Below, piece by piece: positions 31,162-36,888 of a stretch of 64,000 bases of DNA. Origin of the DNA: Thermoanaerobaculia bacterium (GTDB lineage: Bacteria > Acidobacteriota > Thermoanaerobaculia > Multivoradales > SZUA-115); contig DASUEU010000027.1 in the NCBI GenBank assembly GCA_036274895.1, positions 136,883-200,882 of the forward strand, given 5' to 3'. The notes under the pieces are model-generated. The model did not search any database. It had not been told where the DNA came from and saw only the letters and a list, made by a program, of their open reading frames with translations. Position numbers and translations under genes: made by a program. The number at the start of each line of letters is the position of its first letter. Position 1 is the first letter of the stretch.

Positions 31162-32289
31162 GTGGTCAACCTCGCGCTCAAGAACCTCCTCCACGACAAG
31201 TTGCGTGCCCTGATCACGATCTCGGGCGTCGCCTTCGCCGTCACCCTGGTCTTCGTCCAGGTCGGGCTGTTCCTCGGTCTGCTTTTCAATGCCTCGGTAA
31301 CCATCGATCGCATTCCCGCGGACCTCTGGGTGACCTCGAAGAACACCGCCAACATCGACTTCGCACAGACCTTCCCCGAGATCGCCATCCAGCGCGTGCG
31401 CTCGGTGCCCGGCGTGGCCCGCGCGGACAACCTGATCGTCTGGTTCATGAACGTTCGGTTGCCGTCGGGTGCGCAGGAAGGCGCCCTGGTCTACGCCCTG
31501 CACGACTTCTCCGCCTGGGGTATCCCCTGGCGGGTCGAGGAGGGCGACCTCACCGACCTCAAGCGGGGCCGCTACTTCTTCCTCGATCAGTCGGCCACGC
31601 GGCGCTGGGGTGAGTTTGAGGTCGGGCAGTATCGCGAGGTCCTGGGCAGCCGGCTCAAGCTGATCGGTCGCACCCAGGAAGCCGAGTCGTTCACCACCAC
31701 GCCGATCGTGTTCATGGACTACGACCTGGCCCAGGAGATCTCTCCCTTCGATCTCGCGGGCAAGACCACCTACGTGCTGGTGCGCCTGGCACCAGGTGCG
31801 GACGTGGCGGCGGTGCGTGCCGAGATCCAGAAGCGCCTGCCCTACAACGACGTCTTCACCCGTGAAGAGTGGCGGGAACGCTCGCGCTCCTACTGGGTGG
31901 ACTCCACCGGTCTTGGTCTCAACATGATCATGACCGTCTTCCTGGGTTGCCTGGTGGGCGTGGTGGTGGTGGCACAGACCCTCTACACCTCGACCATGGA
32001 GCACTTGAAGGAGTTCGGCACGGTCAAGGCGATCGGCGGCGGCAACCGCCAGATCTACTCGATCCTCGGCCAGCAGGCGACGGTGGCCTCGGTGCTCGGC
32101 TTCCTCTCCGGCGCCGCGATGGCTTTCGCCCTCAAGCCGGCGATGGCGAAGATCAGTCTGAAACTGCTGATCTCGAACCAGCTCGTCCTCCAAGTCTTCG
32201 CCGGCACTCTCCTGCTCTGCCTGGCCGCGGCCCTGATCTCGTTCCGCAAGGTGGCGAGGATCGATCCCGCCCTCGTGTTCCGTACCTGA
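31162..32289 (+). CDS. ABC transporter permease (FtsX/MacB-like)
   Basis: N-terminal TM, large periplasmic loop, and a C-terminal FtsX-type 3-TM bundle. Confidence 0.8.
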   Translation: MVNLALKNLLHDKLRALITISGVAFAVTLVFVQVGLFLGLLFNASVTIDRIPADLWVTSKNTANIDFAQTFPEIAIQRVRSVPGVARADNLIVWFMNVRLPSGAQEGALVYALHDFSAWGIPWRVEEGDLTDLKRGRYFFLDQSATRRWGEFEVGQYREVLGSRLKLIGRTQEAESFTTTPIVFMDYDLAQEISPFDLAGKTTYVLVRLAPGADVAAVRAEIQKRLPYNDVFTREEWRERSRSYWVDSTGLGLNMIMTVFLGCLVGVVVVAQTLYTSTMEHLKEFGTVKAIGGGNRQIYSILGQQATVASVLGFLSGAAMAFALKPAMAKISLKLLISNQLVLQVFAGTLLLCLAAALISFRKVARIDPALVFRT

Positions 32290-32301
32290 CCGGAGACAGC
32301 C

Positions 32302-32973
32302 ATGCCTGTGCTCGAAGCGACCAACGTCAAGAAGACCTTTACCGAAGGGCGCGAGACCGTGGAGGTTCTGCGCGGCGTCTCCCTCACCCTCGAGCCGGGC
32401 GAGGTGGTTGCCCTTTCCGGACCCTCGGGCTCGGGCAAGACCACCCTTCTCTCCATCCTCGGCTGCATCCTGACCCCCAGCGACGGCCGCGTGGTGATCG
32501 AAGGGACCGAGGTGGATGCCGCCCGGCCGGGGGATCTACCGGAGATCCGCCGGCGCTCGATCGGCTTCGTCTTTCAACAGTTCAATCTGTTTCCCGCCCT
32601 GACCGCTCGGGAGAACGTCGAGTACGCCTTGAACATCAAGGGCGTCGCCGGGCGCGCTGCCCGCCGGCAAGCCGAGCGGGTGCTCGACGAAGTGGGCCTC
32701 GCCGATCGCCGCCACTTCCTGCCCCGGGATCTCTCCGGCGGGCAGAAGCAGCGGGTGGCGATCGCCCGTGCCCTGGCCGGCGACCCGGCCATCCTGCTCG
32801 CCGACGAGCCCACCGCCAACCTCGACTCCGAGGTGGGCGGCAAGATCCTGACCCTGTTTCGGGATCTCGCCAAGCGCGAGAACCGAGCCCTCCTGATCGT
32901 CACCCACGACCCCAAGGTGCTGGGCGTCGCCGACCGCGCGGTTGCCATCCGCGACGGCCTGATCGCTGCCTGA
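32302..32973 (+). CDS. ABC transporter ATP-binding protein (MacB/LolD-type)
   Basis: GPSGSGKTT Walker A, LSGGQKQRVAIARAL signature, LLADEPT Walker B. Confidence 0.9.
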   Translation: MPVLEATNVKKTFTEGRETVEVLRGVSLTLEPGEVVALSGPSGSGKTTLLSILGCILTPSDGRVVIEGTEVDAARPGDLPEIRRRSIGFVFQQFNLFPALTARENVEYALNIKGVAGRAARRQAERVLDEVGLADRRHFLPRDLSGGQKQRVAIARALAGDPAILLADEPTANLDSEVGGKILTLFRDLAKRENRALLIVTHDPKVLGVADRAVAIRDGLIAA

Positions 32974-32993
32974 GCCTCGAGAGGAAGATCCCC

Positions 32994-33899
32994 GTGAGAA
33001 CGCCATCCTCCCCGTCCCTCGCCAAGAAGCTCCTCCTCCCCCTTCTGGGCGCCGCCCTGGTCGCCATGCTGGTGGCCCAACTGCGGGGCTTCGAGACAGC
33101 CCGGGCCAGCGTTCCAGCCGCTCCGGCCCAGCCGGGCGGCGAAGCCGGCGACTCCCGCATCACCGCCGAGGGTCGGCTGGTGGCCTACCCGGGCGCCGAG
33201 GTGACCATCGGCAGCGACCTCGCCGGCACCGTGGTGCGACTGCTGGTCGAGGAGAAGATGGAAGTGAAGCAGGGCCAGTTGCTCGCCGAACTGCGCTCGG
33301 ACGACGTGGCGGCCGAGCTGGCCGAGGCCCGCGCTCGTGTCGCCGAGACCGAAGCGGACCTGCGCCTTTACGAGACCGAGGTTGCTCGCGCCGAGCGCCT
33401 GGCCGCCGACGGGGTGATCGCCCAGCAGCGGGCGGACGTCGCCCGCCGGGACCGCGACGCCGCCCTCGCACGGCGCGAGACCGCCGTCGCCGCCGTGGCC
33501 CGGCTCACGGCTGTCCTGGCCAAGAGCCGCATCCTGGCGCCGATCTCCGGGTTGGTGACCAGCCGCCTGGTCGATGCTGGCGAGACCGTCGAGGCCGGCG
33601 AGGAGCTGCTGACCATCGCCGACCTCCGCCGCACCCGCGTGGAGGCCGAGGTGGACGAGTACGACGCCGGCCGGATGGCCCTCGGGCTCTCCGTCGAGGT
33701 CTCGGCCGAGGGCTTTCCCGGTCAGACCTGGCGCGGCGTGATCGAGGAAATCCCGGATGGCGTCACCAGCCGGCGCATCAAGCCCCAGGACCCCGGCCGC
33801 CCGCAGGACACCCGGGTGCTGCTGGTCAAGGTCGCGCTGGCCGAGCCCACCCCCTTGAGGCTCGGCCAGCGGGTGGAGGTGGAGATCGGCGGGGAGTGA
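32994..33899 (+). CDS. Efflux transporter periplasmic adaptor subunit (HlyD/MFP family)
   Basis: GTG start with a GAGGAAG RBS; N-terminal TM, coiled-coil region, ILAPISGLV lipoyl-like motif. Confidence 0.75.
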   Translation: MRTPSSPSLAKKLLLPLLGAALVAMLVAQLRGFETARASVPAAPAQPGGEAGDSRITAEGRLVAYPGAEVTIGSDLAGTVVRLLVEEKMEVKQGQLLAELRSDDVAAELAEARARVAETEADLRLYETEVARAERLAADGVIAQQRADVARRDRDAALARRETAVAAVARLTAVLAKSRILAPISGLVTSRLVDAGETVEAGEELLTIADLRRTRVEAEVDEYDAGRMALGLSVEVSAEGFPGQTWRGVIEEIPDGVTSRRIKPQDPGRPQDTRVLLVKVALAEPTPLRLGQRVEVEIGGE

Positions 33900-33906
33900 A
33901 GCACGG

Positions 33907-35187
33907 TCACGGGTAGTAGAGATAGCAGACGCTGGCCCAGTCGCTGCAGCAGTTGCCGTCGAACTCGCAGCCCCAGTTGCAGCTGCAAGCCGCTTCCGGG
34001 GGATCTTGGCCGCAGCGGCCGTAGCAGCTGGCGTCCCAATCGTCGGGGTAGGTCTGGCAGTCGGTGACCACCCGCAGCGTGGCCCCGAAGGTGCCGCAGT
34101 AGGGAGGGACACCGCTCTGCGAGCCGCCGTTGCAGTTCTGGGCCGAGGCCGAGACCAGGGACTCGAGGTGTCCGTCCGCCACCGGGGCAGAGAACCACAG
34201 GGTGCCCATGGGATCGTCGCAGCACCAGGGGTCGTTCTCCTCGATGTACTCGCTGACCGCGATCCCCTGTCCATCACAGGCGCCGTCCTGGATCATTTCG
34301 TAGAAGGAACCCTGCCAGACCTCGACCGGATCGGTCAGATCGCCGCCGTACCAGGAGCCGTAAGGGTTCGACCACTGGGAGTCCCAGGTGTCGCAGTTGC
34401 AGACGTTGCCCCACTCGCCGCCATTTGGCTTGGAGGGCTTGGGCCCCTTGAAGCAGGTGCGATGGTCGTCCGGGCAATCCCGACCGCGGGGGCTCGAGCC
34501 GAAGTAGACCCCGATGTCGCCCGTCATGGCCCCCTGGCCTGGGGAGTGGAAGGAGTCCAGGTTGGTACTGCACACGCCGTGGCCCGCGTGGCCATTGCAT
34601 TCGAGGGCCCAGTAGCGGTTCATGAAGCGGTCGCGGCTGTAGACCAGGGCGCTGCACCGGCAGTAGTCGGGGTACCAGGAGCGCAGGCCGAGCTGCGGGG
34701 CTGGGACCGGAGGGGCCTCGGTCCGCCGTCGGCCGGACTTGAACTCGCTCGCCGTCCAGCCGGTTTCGCCCCGGAACTCCTCCTCCAGCTTCGCCAGGGA
34801 GAGCTCGAGCTGCCCGCAAAGCTCATCCAGCCCCAGCGCGAGTAGGCAACGGTCCCTTTCGACCTCGAGCACCGCCCGCTGGTAGAGCAGGTCGACCAGC
34901 CGGCCGAGGGAGGCCGAGACGCCGAGCTCCCGGGCCCGCTCGCGAACCTGCGCCTCGACCCGGTGGCGTGAGGCCGTCGCCAGCTGATGCTCGCGGCGCT
35001 CGAGGGAGGAGGCGAGGGCCAGCTTCGCCTGCGGATCGGCATCCAGCTGTGCCTTGGTCTCGCCGAGGGAGACGAGCCCACCGAGAGTTTCCCCTGCAAG
35101 GCAGGGAAGGGTGGTCGCCACCACGAGCAGGGCGGCGAGAGTCAAGAGCAGTGACGAGATTGCGCCGAGGTTTTTCGTTCTCACCAT
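33907..35187 (-). CDS. Secreted Cys-rich protein with a C-terminal somatomedin-B-like cysteine signature
   Basis: AGGAGG RBS and signal peptide (MVRTKNLGAISSLLLTLAALLVVATTLPCLAGE); >25 Cys. The C-terminus CSCNWGCEFDGNCCSDWASVC fits C-x-C-x3-C-x5-CC-x-D-[aromatic]-x3-C. Confidence 0.65.
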   Translation of the reverse strand: MVRTKNLGAISSLLLTLAALLVVATTLPCLAGETLGGLVSLGETKAQLDADPQAKLALASSLERREHQLATASRHRVEAQVRERARELGVSASLGRLVDLLYQRAVLEVERDRCLLALGLDELCGQLELSLAKLEEEFRGETGWTASEFKSGRRRTEAPPVPAPQLGLRSWYPDYCRCSALVYSRDRFMNRYWALECNGHAGHGVCSTNLDSFHSPGQGAMTGDIGVYFGSSPRGRDCPDDHRTCFKGPKPSKPNGGEWGNVCNCDTWDSQWSNPYGSWYGGDLTDPVEVWQGSFYEMIQDGACDGQGIAVSEYIEENDPWCCDDPMGTLWFSAPVADGHLESLVSASAQNCNGGSQSGVPPYCGTFGATLRVVTDCQTYPDDWDASCYGRCGQDPPEAACSCNWGCEFDGNCCSDWASVCYLYYP

Positions 35188-35287
35188 GGCACCTCCTGTG
35201 CGGTTATGGCAATGAGCGGTATATTGCCCCAAGAAGCGACCCCGCCCCGCCGCGGCGGGGCAGAGTCGATGAGAGATCCCTCCTCCG

Positions 35288-35461
35288 TCAGAACGAGCTG
35301 TTACAGCTACCGCAGTGGTGCGAGCCGTCGTGCCCGGCGGACCGATCGCAGGAGCCCTTCCAGCTGTTGGGGCAATCACCGTGGGTGGCGCCGCACTCGC
35401 CCTGATCCTCCGGGTCCTGGCTGTCCGGGGGCTGCTTCTTGGAAGTGATCTTGGGGCTCAT
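35288..35461 (-). CDS. Unannotated small ORF (57 aa) encoding a Cys/His-rich peptide (MSPKITSKKQPPDSQDPEDQGECGATHGDCPNSWKGSCDRSAGHDGSHHCGSCNSSF)
   Basis: AGGAGG sits ~8 nt upstream of the ATG; GC3 ~85%, typical of local genes. It is below the 60-aa cutoff of the ORF track. Confidence 0.45.
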   Translation of the reverse strand: MSPKITSKKQPPDSQDPEDQGECGATHGDCPNSWKGSCDRSAGHDGSHHCGSCNSSF

Positions 35462-35644: not shown

Positions 35645-35866
35645 ATGCGAATCACCGCTTCCAAGCTCCGAGAGAATATCTACAGTCTCCTGGATCAAGT
35701 CCTGACCACCGGCGTGCCCATCGAGATCGAGCGGCGGGGCCGGATCATCCGGCTCGTGCCGACGGAGCCCGCCAGCAAGCTCGATCGGCTGCCGCAGCGC
35801 GACTATCTCGAGGGCGACCCGGAAGATCTCGTTCACCTCGACTGGAGCTCCGAGTGGCGACCCTGA
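35645..35866 (+). CDS. Type II antitoxin, Phd/YefM family
   Basis: MRITASKLRENIYSLLDQV Phd-like N-terminus; overlaps the downstream PIN gene. Confidence 0.75.
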   Translation: MRITASKLRENIYSLLDQVLTTGVPIEIERRGRIIRLVPTEPASKLDRLPQRDYLEGDPEDLVHLDWSSEWRP

Positions 35867-36243
35867 CCTACCTCGACACCCACGTCGTGGCCTGGCTATT
35901 CGCAGGCGAGCTGGCGCTGCTCCCCAAGGCGGTCCGGCTCCGCTTGGAAGAGGGGGACCTGGTGATCTCTCCCATGGTCACCCTGGAGCTGCAGTTCCTC
36001 TTCGAGATCCGGCGTGTCACCAGGCCCGGCCTGGAGGTGGTGGCTGCCCTCGCTGCCGAGTTGGGGCTGCGCACCTGCGACCTGCCCTTTCCCCAGGTCG
36101 TTGCCCGCGCCGCCCACCAGAGCTGGACCCGAGATCCCTTCGACCGCCTGATCACTGCCCAGGCGGCTCTCCGCGAGGCTCCCTTGCTCACCAAGGACGG
36201 AGACATCCACACGCACTATCCGCACGCGGTCTGGAGCGGGTGA
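35854..36243 (+). CDS. PIN-domain toxin (VapC-like)
   Basis: LDTHVVAW...LPFPQ...DRLITAQA PIN acidic residues; 13-bp overlap with the antitoxin. Confidence 0.7.
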   Translation: MATLTYLDTHVVAWLFAGELALLPKAVRLRLEEGDLVISPMVTLELQFLFEIRRVTRPGLEVVAALAAELGLRTCDLPFPQVVARAAHQSWTRDPFDRLITAQAALREAPLLTKDGDIHTHYPHAVWSG

Positions 36244-36495
36244 GGTGTCCGACATCTCTTCGACACCCTCCGACAGCCCTCTTGCCCTCTCCCTGGCCCC
36301 TGCTCGATCGCCCGGTCTCTTCGTAAACAGCAGAAAATAAGTGGCTTAGCTCCGGCAGCCTCAGCCCGACCCCAGCTGGCACCGCCATTGCCTCGTCTCA
36401 CGGGCGCAAGCCACCGTGGCCACGGAGCTCGAACAGCAGAAAGCAACCCCTGCGCGGGAGCGCACAACTTCGAATCCGATCGTAGGAGACCCACC

Positions 36496-36888
36496 ATGTT
36501 GAAGAAGACCCTCGTCGCCGTCCTCGCCCTCGCCGCCATCGCCAGCGCCGCCCATGCCGGCAGCACCTTCCAGCAGAGCTGTTCGCAGATCGAGTTCGTC
36601 TACTCGAGCAACCAGCCGGTGCTGCAGGCCGTCTGCCTCAAGGCCGACGGCACCACCAACTCCACCTCCCTGGTGCTCCAGGGCATCAGCAACCAGAACG
36701 GCACGCTGGTGCAGGGCACGGGAGCCAGCAGCTTCCAGAAGAGCTGCGGCAACATCCAGATCCAGGTCACCAGCCCCACCTCCGTCAACCTGACCGCCTA
36801 CTGCCGCACCTCGAGTGGTTCCTCCAACGCCACCAGCCTGCCGCTCAACAACATCGGCAACAACAACGGCGTGCTCACGGGCGGCTAG
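36496..36888 (+). CDS. Cyanovirin-N homology (CVNH) domain lectin, secreted
   Basis: Signal peptide, then two ~50-aa tandem half-domains, each with 2 Cys: FQQSCSQIEF...LQAVCLKADGTTNSTSLVLQGISNQNGTLV and FQKSCGNIQI...LTAYCRTSSGSSNATSLPLNNIGNNNGVLT. These match the CVNH pattern F..SC...L.a.C....G....s.L.L...I.N.nG.L. Confidence 0.7.
   Translation: MLKKTLVAVLALAAIASAAHAGSTFQQSCSQIEFVYSSNQPVLQAVCLKADGTTNSTSLVLQGISNQNGTLVQGTGASSFQKSCGNIQIQVTSPTSVNLTAYCRTSSGSSNATSLPLNNIGNNNGVLTGG

What the first reader, a model, noticed from the sequence alone, without database searches (positions are those of the whole stretch)
33907..35187. Somatomedin-B-like cysteine signature at the C-terminus of a bacterial Cys-rich secreted protein
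The last 21 residues (CSCNWGCEFDGNCCSDWASVC) fit the somatomedin B pattern C-x-C-x3-C-x5-CC-x-[DN]-[aromatic]-x3-C almost exactly. SMB domains are overwhelmingly eukaryotic (vitronectin, ENPPs). A bacterial occurrence attached to a ~400-aa protein with >25 cysteines would be notable. It may be a horizontally acquired or convergent disulfide knot.
Basis: seen in the sequence. Interest (0 to 1): 0.5.

Follow-up and report, generated by a model that had tools for sequence, protein, structure and literature searches.

The report
Genuine somatomedin-B domain on bacterial protein
A secreted, disulfide-rich protein of a soil Acidobacteriota bacterium really does end in a somatomedin-B domain, the small cystine knot known from animal vitronectin and ENPP enzymes. 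Such domains turn out to be fairly common in bacterial secreted proteins, so the more unusual part is the uncharacterised domain it is attached to.

Summary
The minus-strand gene 33907..35187 encodes a 426-aa secreted protein. Residues 388-421 carry all eight SMB cysteines, and Pfam PF01033 scores above its curated cut-off. A profile of the bacterial tails finds only SMB domains in the PDB (EndoU, ENPP1-3, vitronectin). This is homology, not convergence.

The protein has four parts: a signal peptide, a helical domain, a novel Cys/His/Asp-rich beta-sandwich core with weak C2-like fold similarity and no Pfam, NCBIfam or PDB sequence relative, and a swappable C-terminal module. The core family is tiny: 31 clusters among 1.84 billion. 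About one third of the Thermoanaerobaculia members carry SMB, and they sit basally in the tree. The rest carry another Cys-rich tail. Bdellovibrionia relatives carry WSC or B-lectin modules in the same slot.

The rarity premise is weakened. A metagenome scan found PF01033-positive SMB domains in unrelated, clearly bacterial proteins, including T9SS substrates and tandem SMB arrays.

The function is unknown. My best inference is an extracellular metal-dependent effector or binding protein in which SMB acts as an accessory binding or stabilising module. Interest is moderate.

The parts
33907..35187 (-). Whole gene: a 426-aa secreted, disulfide-rich modular protein plus its stop codon
   Evidence: Searches give the ORF and translation. 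There are 110 homologues of 400-430 aa. dN/dS is 0.18 against the orthologue in L001.
35192..35197 (-). Shine-Dalgarno sequence AGGAGG, 5 nt upstream of ATG 35187
   Evidence: Read directly from the sequence.
35092..35187 (-). Sec-type signal peptide, aa 1-32. It has R3/K5, a hydrophobic stretch LGAISSLLLTLAALLVVATTL, and a likely cleavage after CLA.
   Evidence: Read from the sequence. Homologues have equivalent N-termini ending ...GFG/E. No signal-peptide predictor was available, so this is an inference.
34723..35091 (-). Helical domain, aa about 33-155, six helices. It contains the conserved pair C114/C124 and ends in the conserved EF[KR]SGRR.
   Evidence: The AlphaFold model gives pLDDT about 85-97 for helices 31-151. 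In P0106, P0148 and P0154 the same domain lies C-terminal to the core. It is absent in the Bdellovibrionia relatives. It has no Pfam hit.
34672..34722 (-). Variable Pro-rich linker, aa about 156-172
   Evidence: The region is length-variable and unconserved in alignment A1. pLDDT is below 50.
34036..34671 (-). Conserved core domain, aa about 173-384: a beta-sandwich with 14 Cys. Near-invariant residues are E196, H200, H203, D211, H214, D240, D241, H242, D266, Q292, E317, D319, CCDD322-325 and NCNGGSQSG351-359.
33925..34029 (-). Somatomedin-B domain, aa 387-421: SCYGRCGQDPPEAACSCNWGCEFDGNCCSDWASVC, with eight Cys
   Evidence: PF01033 scores 26.6 and 31.8 bits against a gathering score of 23.1. 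The eight Cys and D416 are invariant. The reciprocal PDB profile search finds only SMB domains. Model 2 gives pLDDT 70-82, with short helices at aa 407-410 and 417-422.
33925..33987 (-).
   Evidence: It is the unique match in the six-frame translation and appeared in none of the shuffles.
33907..33924 (-). C-terminal YLYYP plus the stop codon. This subclade lacks the extra 2-Cys extension seen in 31 of 35 SMB-bearing relatives.

Best explanation
The C-terminal 35-40 residues are a true, homologous somatomedin-B (SMB) cystine-knot domain. The host is a Thermoanaerobaculia (Acidobacteriota) protein.

Shown:
- The protein has a Sec-type signal peptide.
- All 24 mature cysteines are likely oxidised into 12 disulfides: 1 in the helical domain, 7 in the core and 4 in SMB.
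- The architecture is signal peptide, helical domain, linker, core, then a C-terminal module.
- The core is a previously undescribed, very narrowly distributed beta-sandwich with weak C2-like fold similarity. It has a dense cluster of invariant His, Asp and Glu residues in its loops.
- The C-terminal position is a swappable slot. It holds SMB, an alternative Cys-rich tail, WSC, B-lectin, or Big_7/glucodextranase-B-type Ig modules.

Inferred:
- The core is the functional unit, a metal-dependent (Ca2+ or transition-metal) catalytic or binding site acting outside the cytoplasm.
- SMB works as an accessory module that binds a target (protein or glycan), or stabilises or helps fold the core. This would parallel its role on the secreted eukaryotic enzymes ENPP, EndoU and DNase1L5.
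- SMB was probably present in the ancestor of the helical-plus-core clade and was later replaced or remodelled in the crown group.
For: SMB identity:
- Pfam is above its gathering score.
- The eight Cys, D and G are invariant.
- The bacterial-tail profile hits only SMB domains in the PDB, with E down to 1.1e-16.
- The whole-family profile hits the PDB only through its SMB part.
- The predicted short helices fall where vitronectin SMB has its helices (the vitronectin comparison is from my own knowledge of 1OC0).

Secreted and oxidised:
- The N-terminus looks like a signal peptide.
- Cys counts in SMB tails are always even, 8 or 10.
- Core Cys are lost only in pairs or quartets: 197 with 263, 206 with 265, 238 with 245, and 322/323/352/364 together.

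Modular slot:
- 32 of 106 family members have a strict SMB and about 70 have other tails.
- P0120, P0146 and P0147 carry WSC; P0150 carries B_lectin; P0126 carries Big_7.

Core novelty and fold.

SMB basal in the family tree.

No conserved gene neighbours, so this is a stand-alone gene.

Accessory role of SMB on secreted enzymes: PMC9208542 and PMC11961692.
Against: - No experiment or structure supports any function.
- Model confidence is only moderate (mean pLDDT 69-75). It is below 50 in exactly the loops that hold the conserved His and Asp residues.
- Disulfide topology could not be examined because no coordinates were accessible.
- The tree is neighbour-joining without bootstrap support.
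- Whether the alternative 'CDP-type' tail derives from SMB is unresolved (hhalign probability 12%).
- Acidobacteriota are diderm, so the protein could stay in the periplasm rather than be released.
Confidence: 0.72

Rival explanations
1. The protein is a modular toxin or lectin-like bacteriocin. The C-terminal module (SMB, WSC or B-lectin) would be the receptor-binding domain, and the core, possibly with the helical domain, would be a membrane-targeting or killing module. This refines the best explanation rather than excluding it.
For: - C2-like sandwiches are membrane-targeting modules in perforin, and Cry37Aa1 is among the hits.
- Relatives occur in predatory Bdellovibrionia fused to B-lectin or WSC modules.
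- The genes are stand-alone, sit in variable neighbourhoods close to toxin-antitoxin pairs, and have no conserved partner.
- Lectin-like bacteriocins of the LlpA type use B-lectin domains and lack immunity genes (my own knowledge).
Against: - No homology to any known toxin domain, and no PADLOC or PHROGs hit.
- No immunity-like neighbour was found.
- The many invariant His, Asp and Glu residues look more like a metal or active site than a pore former.
- The C2 similarity is weak.
Confidence: 0.2
2. The SMB domain was recently acquired by horizontal transfer from a eukaryote into this particular lineage.
For: - The literature treats SMB as a holozoan fold; SCOP g.64 is listed as a Holozoa synapomorphy in PMC9541633.
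- WSC and B-lectin in the same slot are also eukaryote-typical modules.
Against: - SMB-bearing members form the basal grade of the family, including the divergent P0114, and they show three distinct SMB subtypes.
- The SMB codons have dS similar to the rest of the gene.
- SMB domains occur in unrelated bacterial proteins across very different GC contents and architectures.
Confidence: 0.06
3. The match is a convergent or chance cysteine pattern in a Cys-rich protein, not a homologous SMB domain.
For: - The protein is Cys-rich, with 25 Cys.
- Short Cys patterns can arise by chance, and the Pfam score is only 3.5 bits above the cut-off on the full protein.
- The strict PROSITE pattern fails at one position (W where [FY] is required).
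Against: - 0 of 200,000 shuffles reproduce even the half-pattern.
- The full eight-Cys spacing and non-Cys positions (G-R-C-G, G-x-CC-x-D-aromatic) match.
- The reciprocal profile search is specific and strong.
- The pattern is conserved under purifying selection in 35 relatives.
Confidence: 0.02

Closest known systems
SMB domains of EndoU/PP11 (PDB 9ftw), ENPP1-3 and autotaxin, SUSD2 and vitronectin (1OC0)
   Same: They share the eight-Cys spacing C-x3-C-x8-C-x-C-x3-C-x5-CC-x-D-aromatic-x3-C and the SCxGRC start. They are extracellular and are attached to a larger secreted protein. The bacterial profile matches them at E from 1e-16 to 1e-5.
   Different: The host here is a bacterium. SMB is single and C-terminal rather than N-terminal or tandem. 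The partner domains are unrelated: there is no phosphodiesterase, XendoU or hemopexin domain. This protein has Trp at the aromatic position. Most relatives carry a fifth disulfide through a C-terminal extension.
Vertebrate DNase1L5 with a C-terminal SMB (PMC9208542)
   Same: A single SMB sits at the C-terminus of a secreted enzyme. The paper reports it as required for production of active recombinant enzyme. This is the best analogy for an accessory or stabilising role.
   Different: The catalytic domain differs (a DNase I fold), the host is eukaryotic, and there is no helical domain.
Other bacterial SMB-containing proteins found here in metagenomes (L106, L127, L048, L135, L073, L052, L116)
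   Same: They are PF01033-positive SMB modules inside large, Cys-rich, secreted bacterial proteins.
   Different: The architectures are entirely different: dockerin plus a T9SS sorting tail, lamin-tail plus PKD, MopE-like motifs, and tandem SMB arrays. None contains this core.
C2 domains, including the extracellular disulfide-bonded C2 (MNNL) of Jagged and Delta, perforin C2, and the tardigrade C2-like Mn peroxidase AMNP (7dbt)
   Different: There is no sequence similarity and no PF00168 hit. The loop insertions are much larger and carry 7 disulfides and conserved His residues. The domain is about 210 aa, against about 130 aa for C2. Membership is not established.

Membership tests
Somatomedin B domain (Pfam PF01033 / PROSITE PS00524) | Profile HMM score at or above the curated gathering threshold | tested here: met
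   26.6 bits on the whole protein and 31.8 bits on the isolated 57-aa tail, against a gathering score of 23.1. The divergent relative P0114 scores 25.2 bits.
Somatomedin B domain (Pfam PF01033 / PROSITE PS00524) | Eight cysteines in the canonical spacing, with the CC-x-[DN]-aromatic-x3-C signature | tested here: met
   C388, C392, C401, C403, C407, C413, C414 and C421 align column for column with vitronectin. They are invariant in 30 sequences. The strict PROSITE pattern requires [FY]; this protein has W417, and orthologues have F or Y.
Somatomedin B domain (Pfam PF01033 / PROSITE PS00524) | Reciprocal specificity: a profile built from these sequences retrieves known SMB domains and nothing else | tested here: met
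   All 43 PDB sequences found at E<=1 are SMB-containing: EndoU, ENPP1-3, snake-venom PDE, SUSD2 and vitronectin.
Somatomedin B domain (Pfam PF01033 / PROSITE PS00524) | SMB fold: a compact knot with one short alpha-helix and one 3-10 turn | tested here: inconclusive
   Model 2 gives pLDDT 70-82 for the domain, with short helices at aa 407-410 and 417-422, where vitronectin has its helices (the comparison is from memory). Model 1 gave pLDDT below 50. No superposition was possible, and the fold searches were dominated by the core.
Somatomedin B domain (Pfam PF01033 / PROSITE PS00524) | Disulfide connectivity as in the vitronectin crystal structure (Cys 1-4, 2-8, 3-6, 5-7) | not testable with these tools
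Only parity is shown: tails always have 8 or 10 Cys.
Somatomedin B domain (Pfam PF01033 / PROSITE PS00524) | Extracellular or secretory context | tested here: met
   The N-terminus looks like a signal peptide. Paired Cys loss indicates that all Cys are disulfide-bonded. There is no experimental localisation.
C2 domain (Pfam PF00168), considered for the core | Sequence-profile membership | tested here: not met
   No C2 hit or any other Pfam hit for 18 core sequences at E<=10. No PDB sequence hit at E<=10.
C2 domain (Pfam PF00168), considered for the core | Eight-stranded antiparallel beta-sandwich fold | tested here: inconclusive
C2 domain (Pfam PF00168), considered for the core | Ca2+-binding aspartate cluster in loops at one tip of the sandwich | not testable with these tools
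   Invariant D240, D241, D266, E317, D319 and D325 lie in inter-strand loops. Their geometry is unknown.
ENPP / EndoU / vitronectin-type SMB proteins (whole-protein architecture) | SMB combined with a phosphodiesterase, XendoU or hemopexin domain | tested here: not met
   No such Pfam domain is present in this protein.

The most novel reading that the evidence does not exclude
The SMB domain is not an animal or holozoan invention. On this reading it is a widespread bacterial extracellular cystine-knot module that eukaryotes inherited or acquired. The Thermoanaerobaculia/Bdellovibrionia core described here would then be a new class of metal-dependent extracellular effector, a toxin or enzyme, that uses interchangeable 'eukaryote-like' binding modules (SMB, WSC, B-lectin) to recognise its targets.
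Probability: 0.2. Interest if true: 0.6.

Novelty: new variant of a known kind. Interest (0 to 1): 0.4.

Why it matters
In the literature SMB is treated as an animal or holozoan domain, and its function is still called uncertain. A bona fide SMB on a bacterial protein matters for three reasons:
- Together with the many other bacterial SMB proteins found here, it shows that the domain's taxonomic range is much wider than described.
- It provides simple bacterial systems for asking what an SMB knot does for its partner domain, whether folding aid, stabiliser or ligand binder.
- It brings to light an unannotated, highly conserved Cys/His/Asp-rich core domain that deserves a family entry and biochemical study.

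It does not by itself answer a long-standing question, and no function has been demonstrated.

Tried and rejected
Searches that led nowhere:
- The search for homologous proteins with the SMB tails alone collected only 11 candidates and 2 hits. The word index is unsuitable for a 47-aa query, so it gave no census.
I replaced it with a degenerate DNA pattern scan.
- The afdb50 fold library was unavailable.
- NCBIfam, PHROGs and PADLOC gave no hits. Pfam on 18 core sequences gave no hits. A PDB sequence search with the core profile gave nothing at E<=10.
- Six full-text literature searches found no paper on bacterial SMB domains: 'somatomedin B' with bacterial, prokaryot, eukaryotic-like or metagenom; PF01033; and a Thermoanaerobaculia search.

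Tests that were negative or inconclusive:
- Conserved gene neighbourhood: none across the divergent loci. Small flanking ORFs are unrelated to one another. The convergent MacB/HlyD efflux system is syntenic only in the 87%-identical relative, so I do not link it to this gene.
- Homology of the alternative 'CDP-type' tail to SMB: hhalign probability is 12%, although the central C-x-C-x3-C-x5-C aligns. There is no PF01033 hit. This remains inconclusive.

Readings I rejected:
- The longer GTG start at 35379. There is no ribosome-binding site, it overlaps an upstream small ORF and a hairpin, and orthologues start at the ATG.
- A lipoprotein. 'TLPC' is not a lipobox, and homologues lack a Cys at that position.

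Full report
**Observation**

The minus-strand ORF 33907..35187 encodes a 426-aa protein. An AGGAGG ribosome-binding site lies 5 nt upstream of ATG 35187. The 87%-identical orthologue P0001 starts at the same Met.

The flagged 21-residue string CSCNWGCEFDGNCCSDWASVC is residues 401-421, window 33925..33987 minus strand. Five residues (YLYYP) follow it. It is the only match to the relaxed SMB signature in the six-frame translation of the window. It was not reproduced in 200,000 residue shuffles of this protein or in 200 codon-shuffled windows.

The protein has 25 cysteines, 24 after removal of the signal peptide. Two more cysteines upstream (SCYGRCG) complete the canonical eight-Cys SMB: SCYGRCGQDPPEAACSCNWGCEFDGNCCSDWASVC.

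**Is it an SMB domain?**

Yes, on four lines of evidence:
- Pfam PF01033 scores 26.6 bits on the full protein and 31.8 bits on the isolated tail, against a gathering score of 23.1.
- Aligned with vitronectin and 28 family members, all eight Cys and the Asp are invariant. A conserved Gly precedes the CC pair.
- A profile built only from the bacterial tails and searched against all PDB sequences retrieved SMB-containing chains and nothing else. These were EndoU (E=1.1e-16, two domains at 34-36 bits), ENPP1/2/3 (1e-12 to 1e-9), snake-venom PDE, SUSD2 and vitronectin (1.6e-5).
- The gene is under purifying selection against its closest orthologue, with dN/dS 0.15 in SMB, 0.105 in the core and dS about 0.4-0.5 throughout.

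This rules out chance and makes convergence very unlikely.

The structural test is weaker. With an SMB-only alignment, AlphaFold gave pLDDT 70-82 for the domain. It placed short helices at aa 407-410 and 417-422. As I recall from structure 1OC0, vitronectin SMB has its single-turn helices at those positions.

**The rest of the protein**

The 110 homologues are 400-430 aa long and come only from metagenomes and MAGs. Those with names are Thermoanaerobaculia. A scan of one genome per species gave 30 loci, all in Thermoanaerobaculia or other Acidobacteriota MAGs. The window itself is about 70% GC and is syntenic with Thermoanaerobaculia MAG040.

Alignment and modelling give this architecture:
- a signal peptide;
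- a confidently modelled six-helix domain (aa about 33-155, pLDDT about 90) ending in the conserved EF[KR]SGRR;
- a variable Pro-rich linker;
- a very conserved beta-rich core (aa about 173-384);
- a variable C-terminal tail.

The core has no hit in Pfam, NCBIfam, PHROGs, PADLOC or PDB sequences. An exhaustive HMM search of 1.84 billion cluster representatives found only 31 matches.

Across even the most distant members, these residues are invariant or nearly so: E196, H200, H203, D211, H214, D240, D241, H242, D266, Q292, E317, D319 and D325. Most lie in the loops that AlphaFold cannot place. That pattern suggests a metal or active site.

Cysteine presence and absence covaries cleanly across 120 core sequences. 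C197 is lost with C263 (11 sequences), C206 with C265 (3), C238 with C245 (7), and C322/C323/C352/C364 together (8). SMB tails always have 8 or 10 Cys. The whole mature protein is therefore probably fully disulfide-bonded, as expected for an exported protein.

**The C-terminal slot**

Among 106 family members with the core motif, 32 match a strict eight-Cys SMB pattern, and a few more are variants. About 70 carry other Cys-rich tails, of which the commonest type is CDP..EQ.C[WY]..G..W....C.C...C.....C..W....C.C. Whether that tail is a remodelled SMB is unresolved. The central C-x-C-x3-C-x5-C aligns, but the hhalign probability is only 12% and there is no PF01033 hit.

More distant members lack the helical domain, and those with names are Bdellovibrionota or Bdellovibrionia. 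They carry WSC, B-lectin, Big_7/glucodextranase-B or knottin-like tails in the same position. In P0106, P0148 and P0154 the helical domain follows the core instead of preceding it.

A neighbour-joining tree of the core, rooted on the Bdellovibrionia-type members, places SMB-bearing proteins as a basal paraphyletic grade. The other tails form the crown. The tree has no support values. The pattern suggests that SMB was ancestral to the helical-plus-core clade rather than a recent acquisition.

**Genomic context**

The gene stands alone. Neighbours differ among divergent loci, and the small flanking ORFs are unrelated. The convergent MacB-type ABC/HlyD system that ends 8 bp from the stop codon is shared only with the closest relative. 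Toxin-antitoxin pairs are nearby in several loci, which fits a variable genomic region.

**How unusual is a bacterial SMB?**

The literature is silent. Six full-text searches found no paper on bacterial SMB domains. One paper lists the SMB fold as a Holozoa synapomorphy (PMC9541633). An SMB protein is, however, annotated in the green alga Ostreococcus.

The sequence data say otherwise. Sixty-five loci carry clean SMB-like segments, and none has this core.

Of ten long ORFs tested, seven passed the PF01033 gathering score. For four of these, the domain architecture or contig context is clearly bacterial:
- L106 and L127: SMB plus dockerin plus a Por/T9SS sorting tail (GC 0.29).
- L048: lamin-tail domain, SMB, PKD and dockerin.
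- L073: tandem SMBs at 67 bits (GC 0.67), on a contig whose neighbours are BamB-like, SSF and methyltransferase genes.

The other three are L135, with MopE-like motifs and a C-terminal SMB (GC 0.73), L052 and L116. I judge these likely bacterial from their high GC and uninterrupted long ORFs only.

JGI already labels one family member 'Somatomedin B domain'. So the domain is a recurrent, though undescribed, module of bacterial secreted proteins. The premise that a bacterial occurrence is exceptional is weakened.

**Mechanism**

Shown: the protein has a signal peptide, is disulfide-rich, and is modular with a swappable C-terminal module.

Inferred: the conserved core is a metal-dependent catalytic or binding unit. 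SMB acts as an accessory module that binds a target or stabilises the core. Two things support this. Carbohydrate-binding modules (WSC, B-lectin) occupy the same slot in relatives. Eukaryotic SMBs likewise accompany secreted enzymes and are described as being of uncertain function. The C-terminal SMB of DNase1L5 was reported as necessary for producing active enzyme (PMC9208542; PMC11961692).

A toxin or lectin-like bacteriocin reading is a plausible refinement. It rests on the weak C2-like fold similarity, the predatory-bacterium relatives, the stand-alone genes and the lack of an immunity gene. I give it about 0.2.

Recent eukaryote-to-bacterium transfer into this lineage (0.06) and chance or convergence (0.02) are disfavoured.

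**Verdict**

What is new is the architecture, an SMB on an unannotated, narrowly distributed Cys/His/Asp-rich core with weak C2-like fold similarity, and the evidence that the SMB taxonomic range is broader than described. Function remains untested, so interest is moderate (0.4).

Noticed in passing
window 35288..35461 (- strand): A small 57-aa ORF lies directly upstream of the SMB gene: MSPKITSKKQPPDSQDPEDQGECGATHGDCPNSWKGSCDRSAGHDGSHHCGSCNSSF. It is Cys/His-rich, has no signal peptide and has a good ribosome-binding site. A GC-rich hairpin (about 35240-35260) and TCGCTTCTT follow it. It is also called as a gene in the closest relative (L031 7728-7901). It is not present next to divergent family members.
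   Followed up: partly
window 36493..36888 (+ strand): A secreted cyanovirin-N homologue (CVNH domain, PF08881, 52.8 bits) lies about 1.3 kb from the SMB gene. It is conserved in the same position in the closest relative. This is another lectin-type module better known from cyanobacteria and eukaryotes.
   Followed up: partly
window 35645..36243 (+ strand); also L035 7310-7776 and L036 4766-5447, 9583-10196: A PhD/YefM-PIN toxin-antitoxin pair lies next to the gene. Other TA pairs (HicAB, MNT/HEPN, PhD/PIN) sit next to divergent family members in other genomes. This suggests the family resides in variable, island-like regions.
   Followed up: partly
window 31162..33899 (+ strand): A MacB-type tripartite efflux set (FtsX/MacB permease, ABC ATPase, HlyD-family adaptor) converges on the SMB gene and ends 8 bp from its stop codon. 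In the relative it is preceded by a TetR regulator. It is syntenic only in the closest relative, so no functional link is inferred.
   Followed up: partly
L073 2-1429 (- strand), metagenome contig Ga0114996_10009739: A high-GC (0.67) bacterial ORF consists largely of tandem SMB-like repeats (PF01033 67 bits, at least 3 stretches, about 9 repeats by eye). Several repeats have a variant CC-x-D-x-C-x2-C ending. Its neighbours are BamB-like, SSF and methyltransferase genes.
   Followed up: partly
L106 4509-7361 (+), L127 7083-9899 (+), L048 7653-10496 (-): Three low-GC (0.29-0.33) bacterial proteins of about 940-950 aa carry an SMB domain. In L106 and L127 it comes with a dockerin and a Por/T9SS C-terminal sorting tail. 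In L048 it comes with a lamin-tail domain, a PKD domain and a dockerin. These are clear cases of SMB in unrelated bacterial lineages.
   Followed up: partly
P0120, P0146, P0147, P0150, P0126 (Bdellovibrionota/Bdellovibrionia MAG proteins; P0126 at L037 5001-6473): Distant relatives of the core domain, named from predatory-bacteria MAGs where names exist, lack the helical domain. Instead of SMB they carry WSC, B-lectin or Big_7/glucodextranase-B modules. WSC is itself mostly a eukaryotic domain.
   Followed up: partly
P0106, P0148, P0154 (metagenome proteins): The domain order is permuted: signal peptide, core, Gly-rich linker or Cys module, then the helical domain at the C-terminus. The helical domain is therefore a mobile partner of the core, not simply an N-terminal propeptide.
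   Followed up: partly
window gene aa 176-377 (34057..34662, - strand): Cysteine presence and absence covaries across 120 core sequences, which predicts disulfides C197-C263, C206-C265 and C238-C245, plus two bonds among C322/C323/C352/C364. The always-present C176/C178/C304/C377 presumably form the last two bonds.
   Followed up: yes
P0080 and P0081 (adjacent genes ACJ75H_02540 and ACJ75H_02535); L013 and L019 on one contig; L006, L022 and L030 in one MAG: Several Thermoanaerobaculia genomes carry two or three paralogues of the family. Some are adjacent, which indicates lineage-specific expansion.
   Followed up: no
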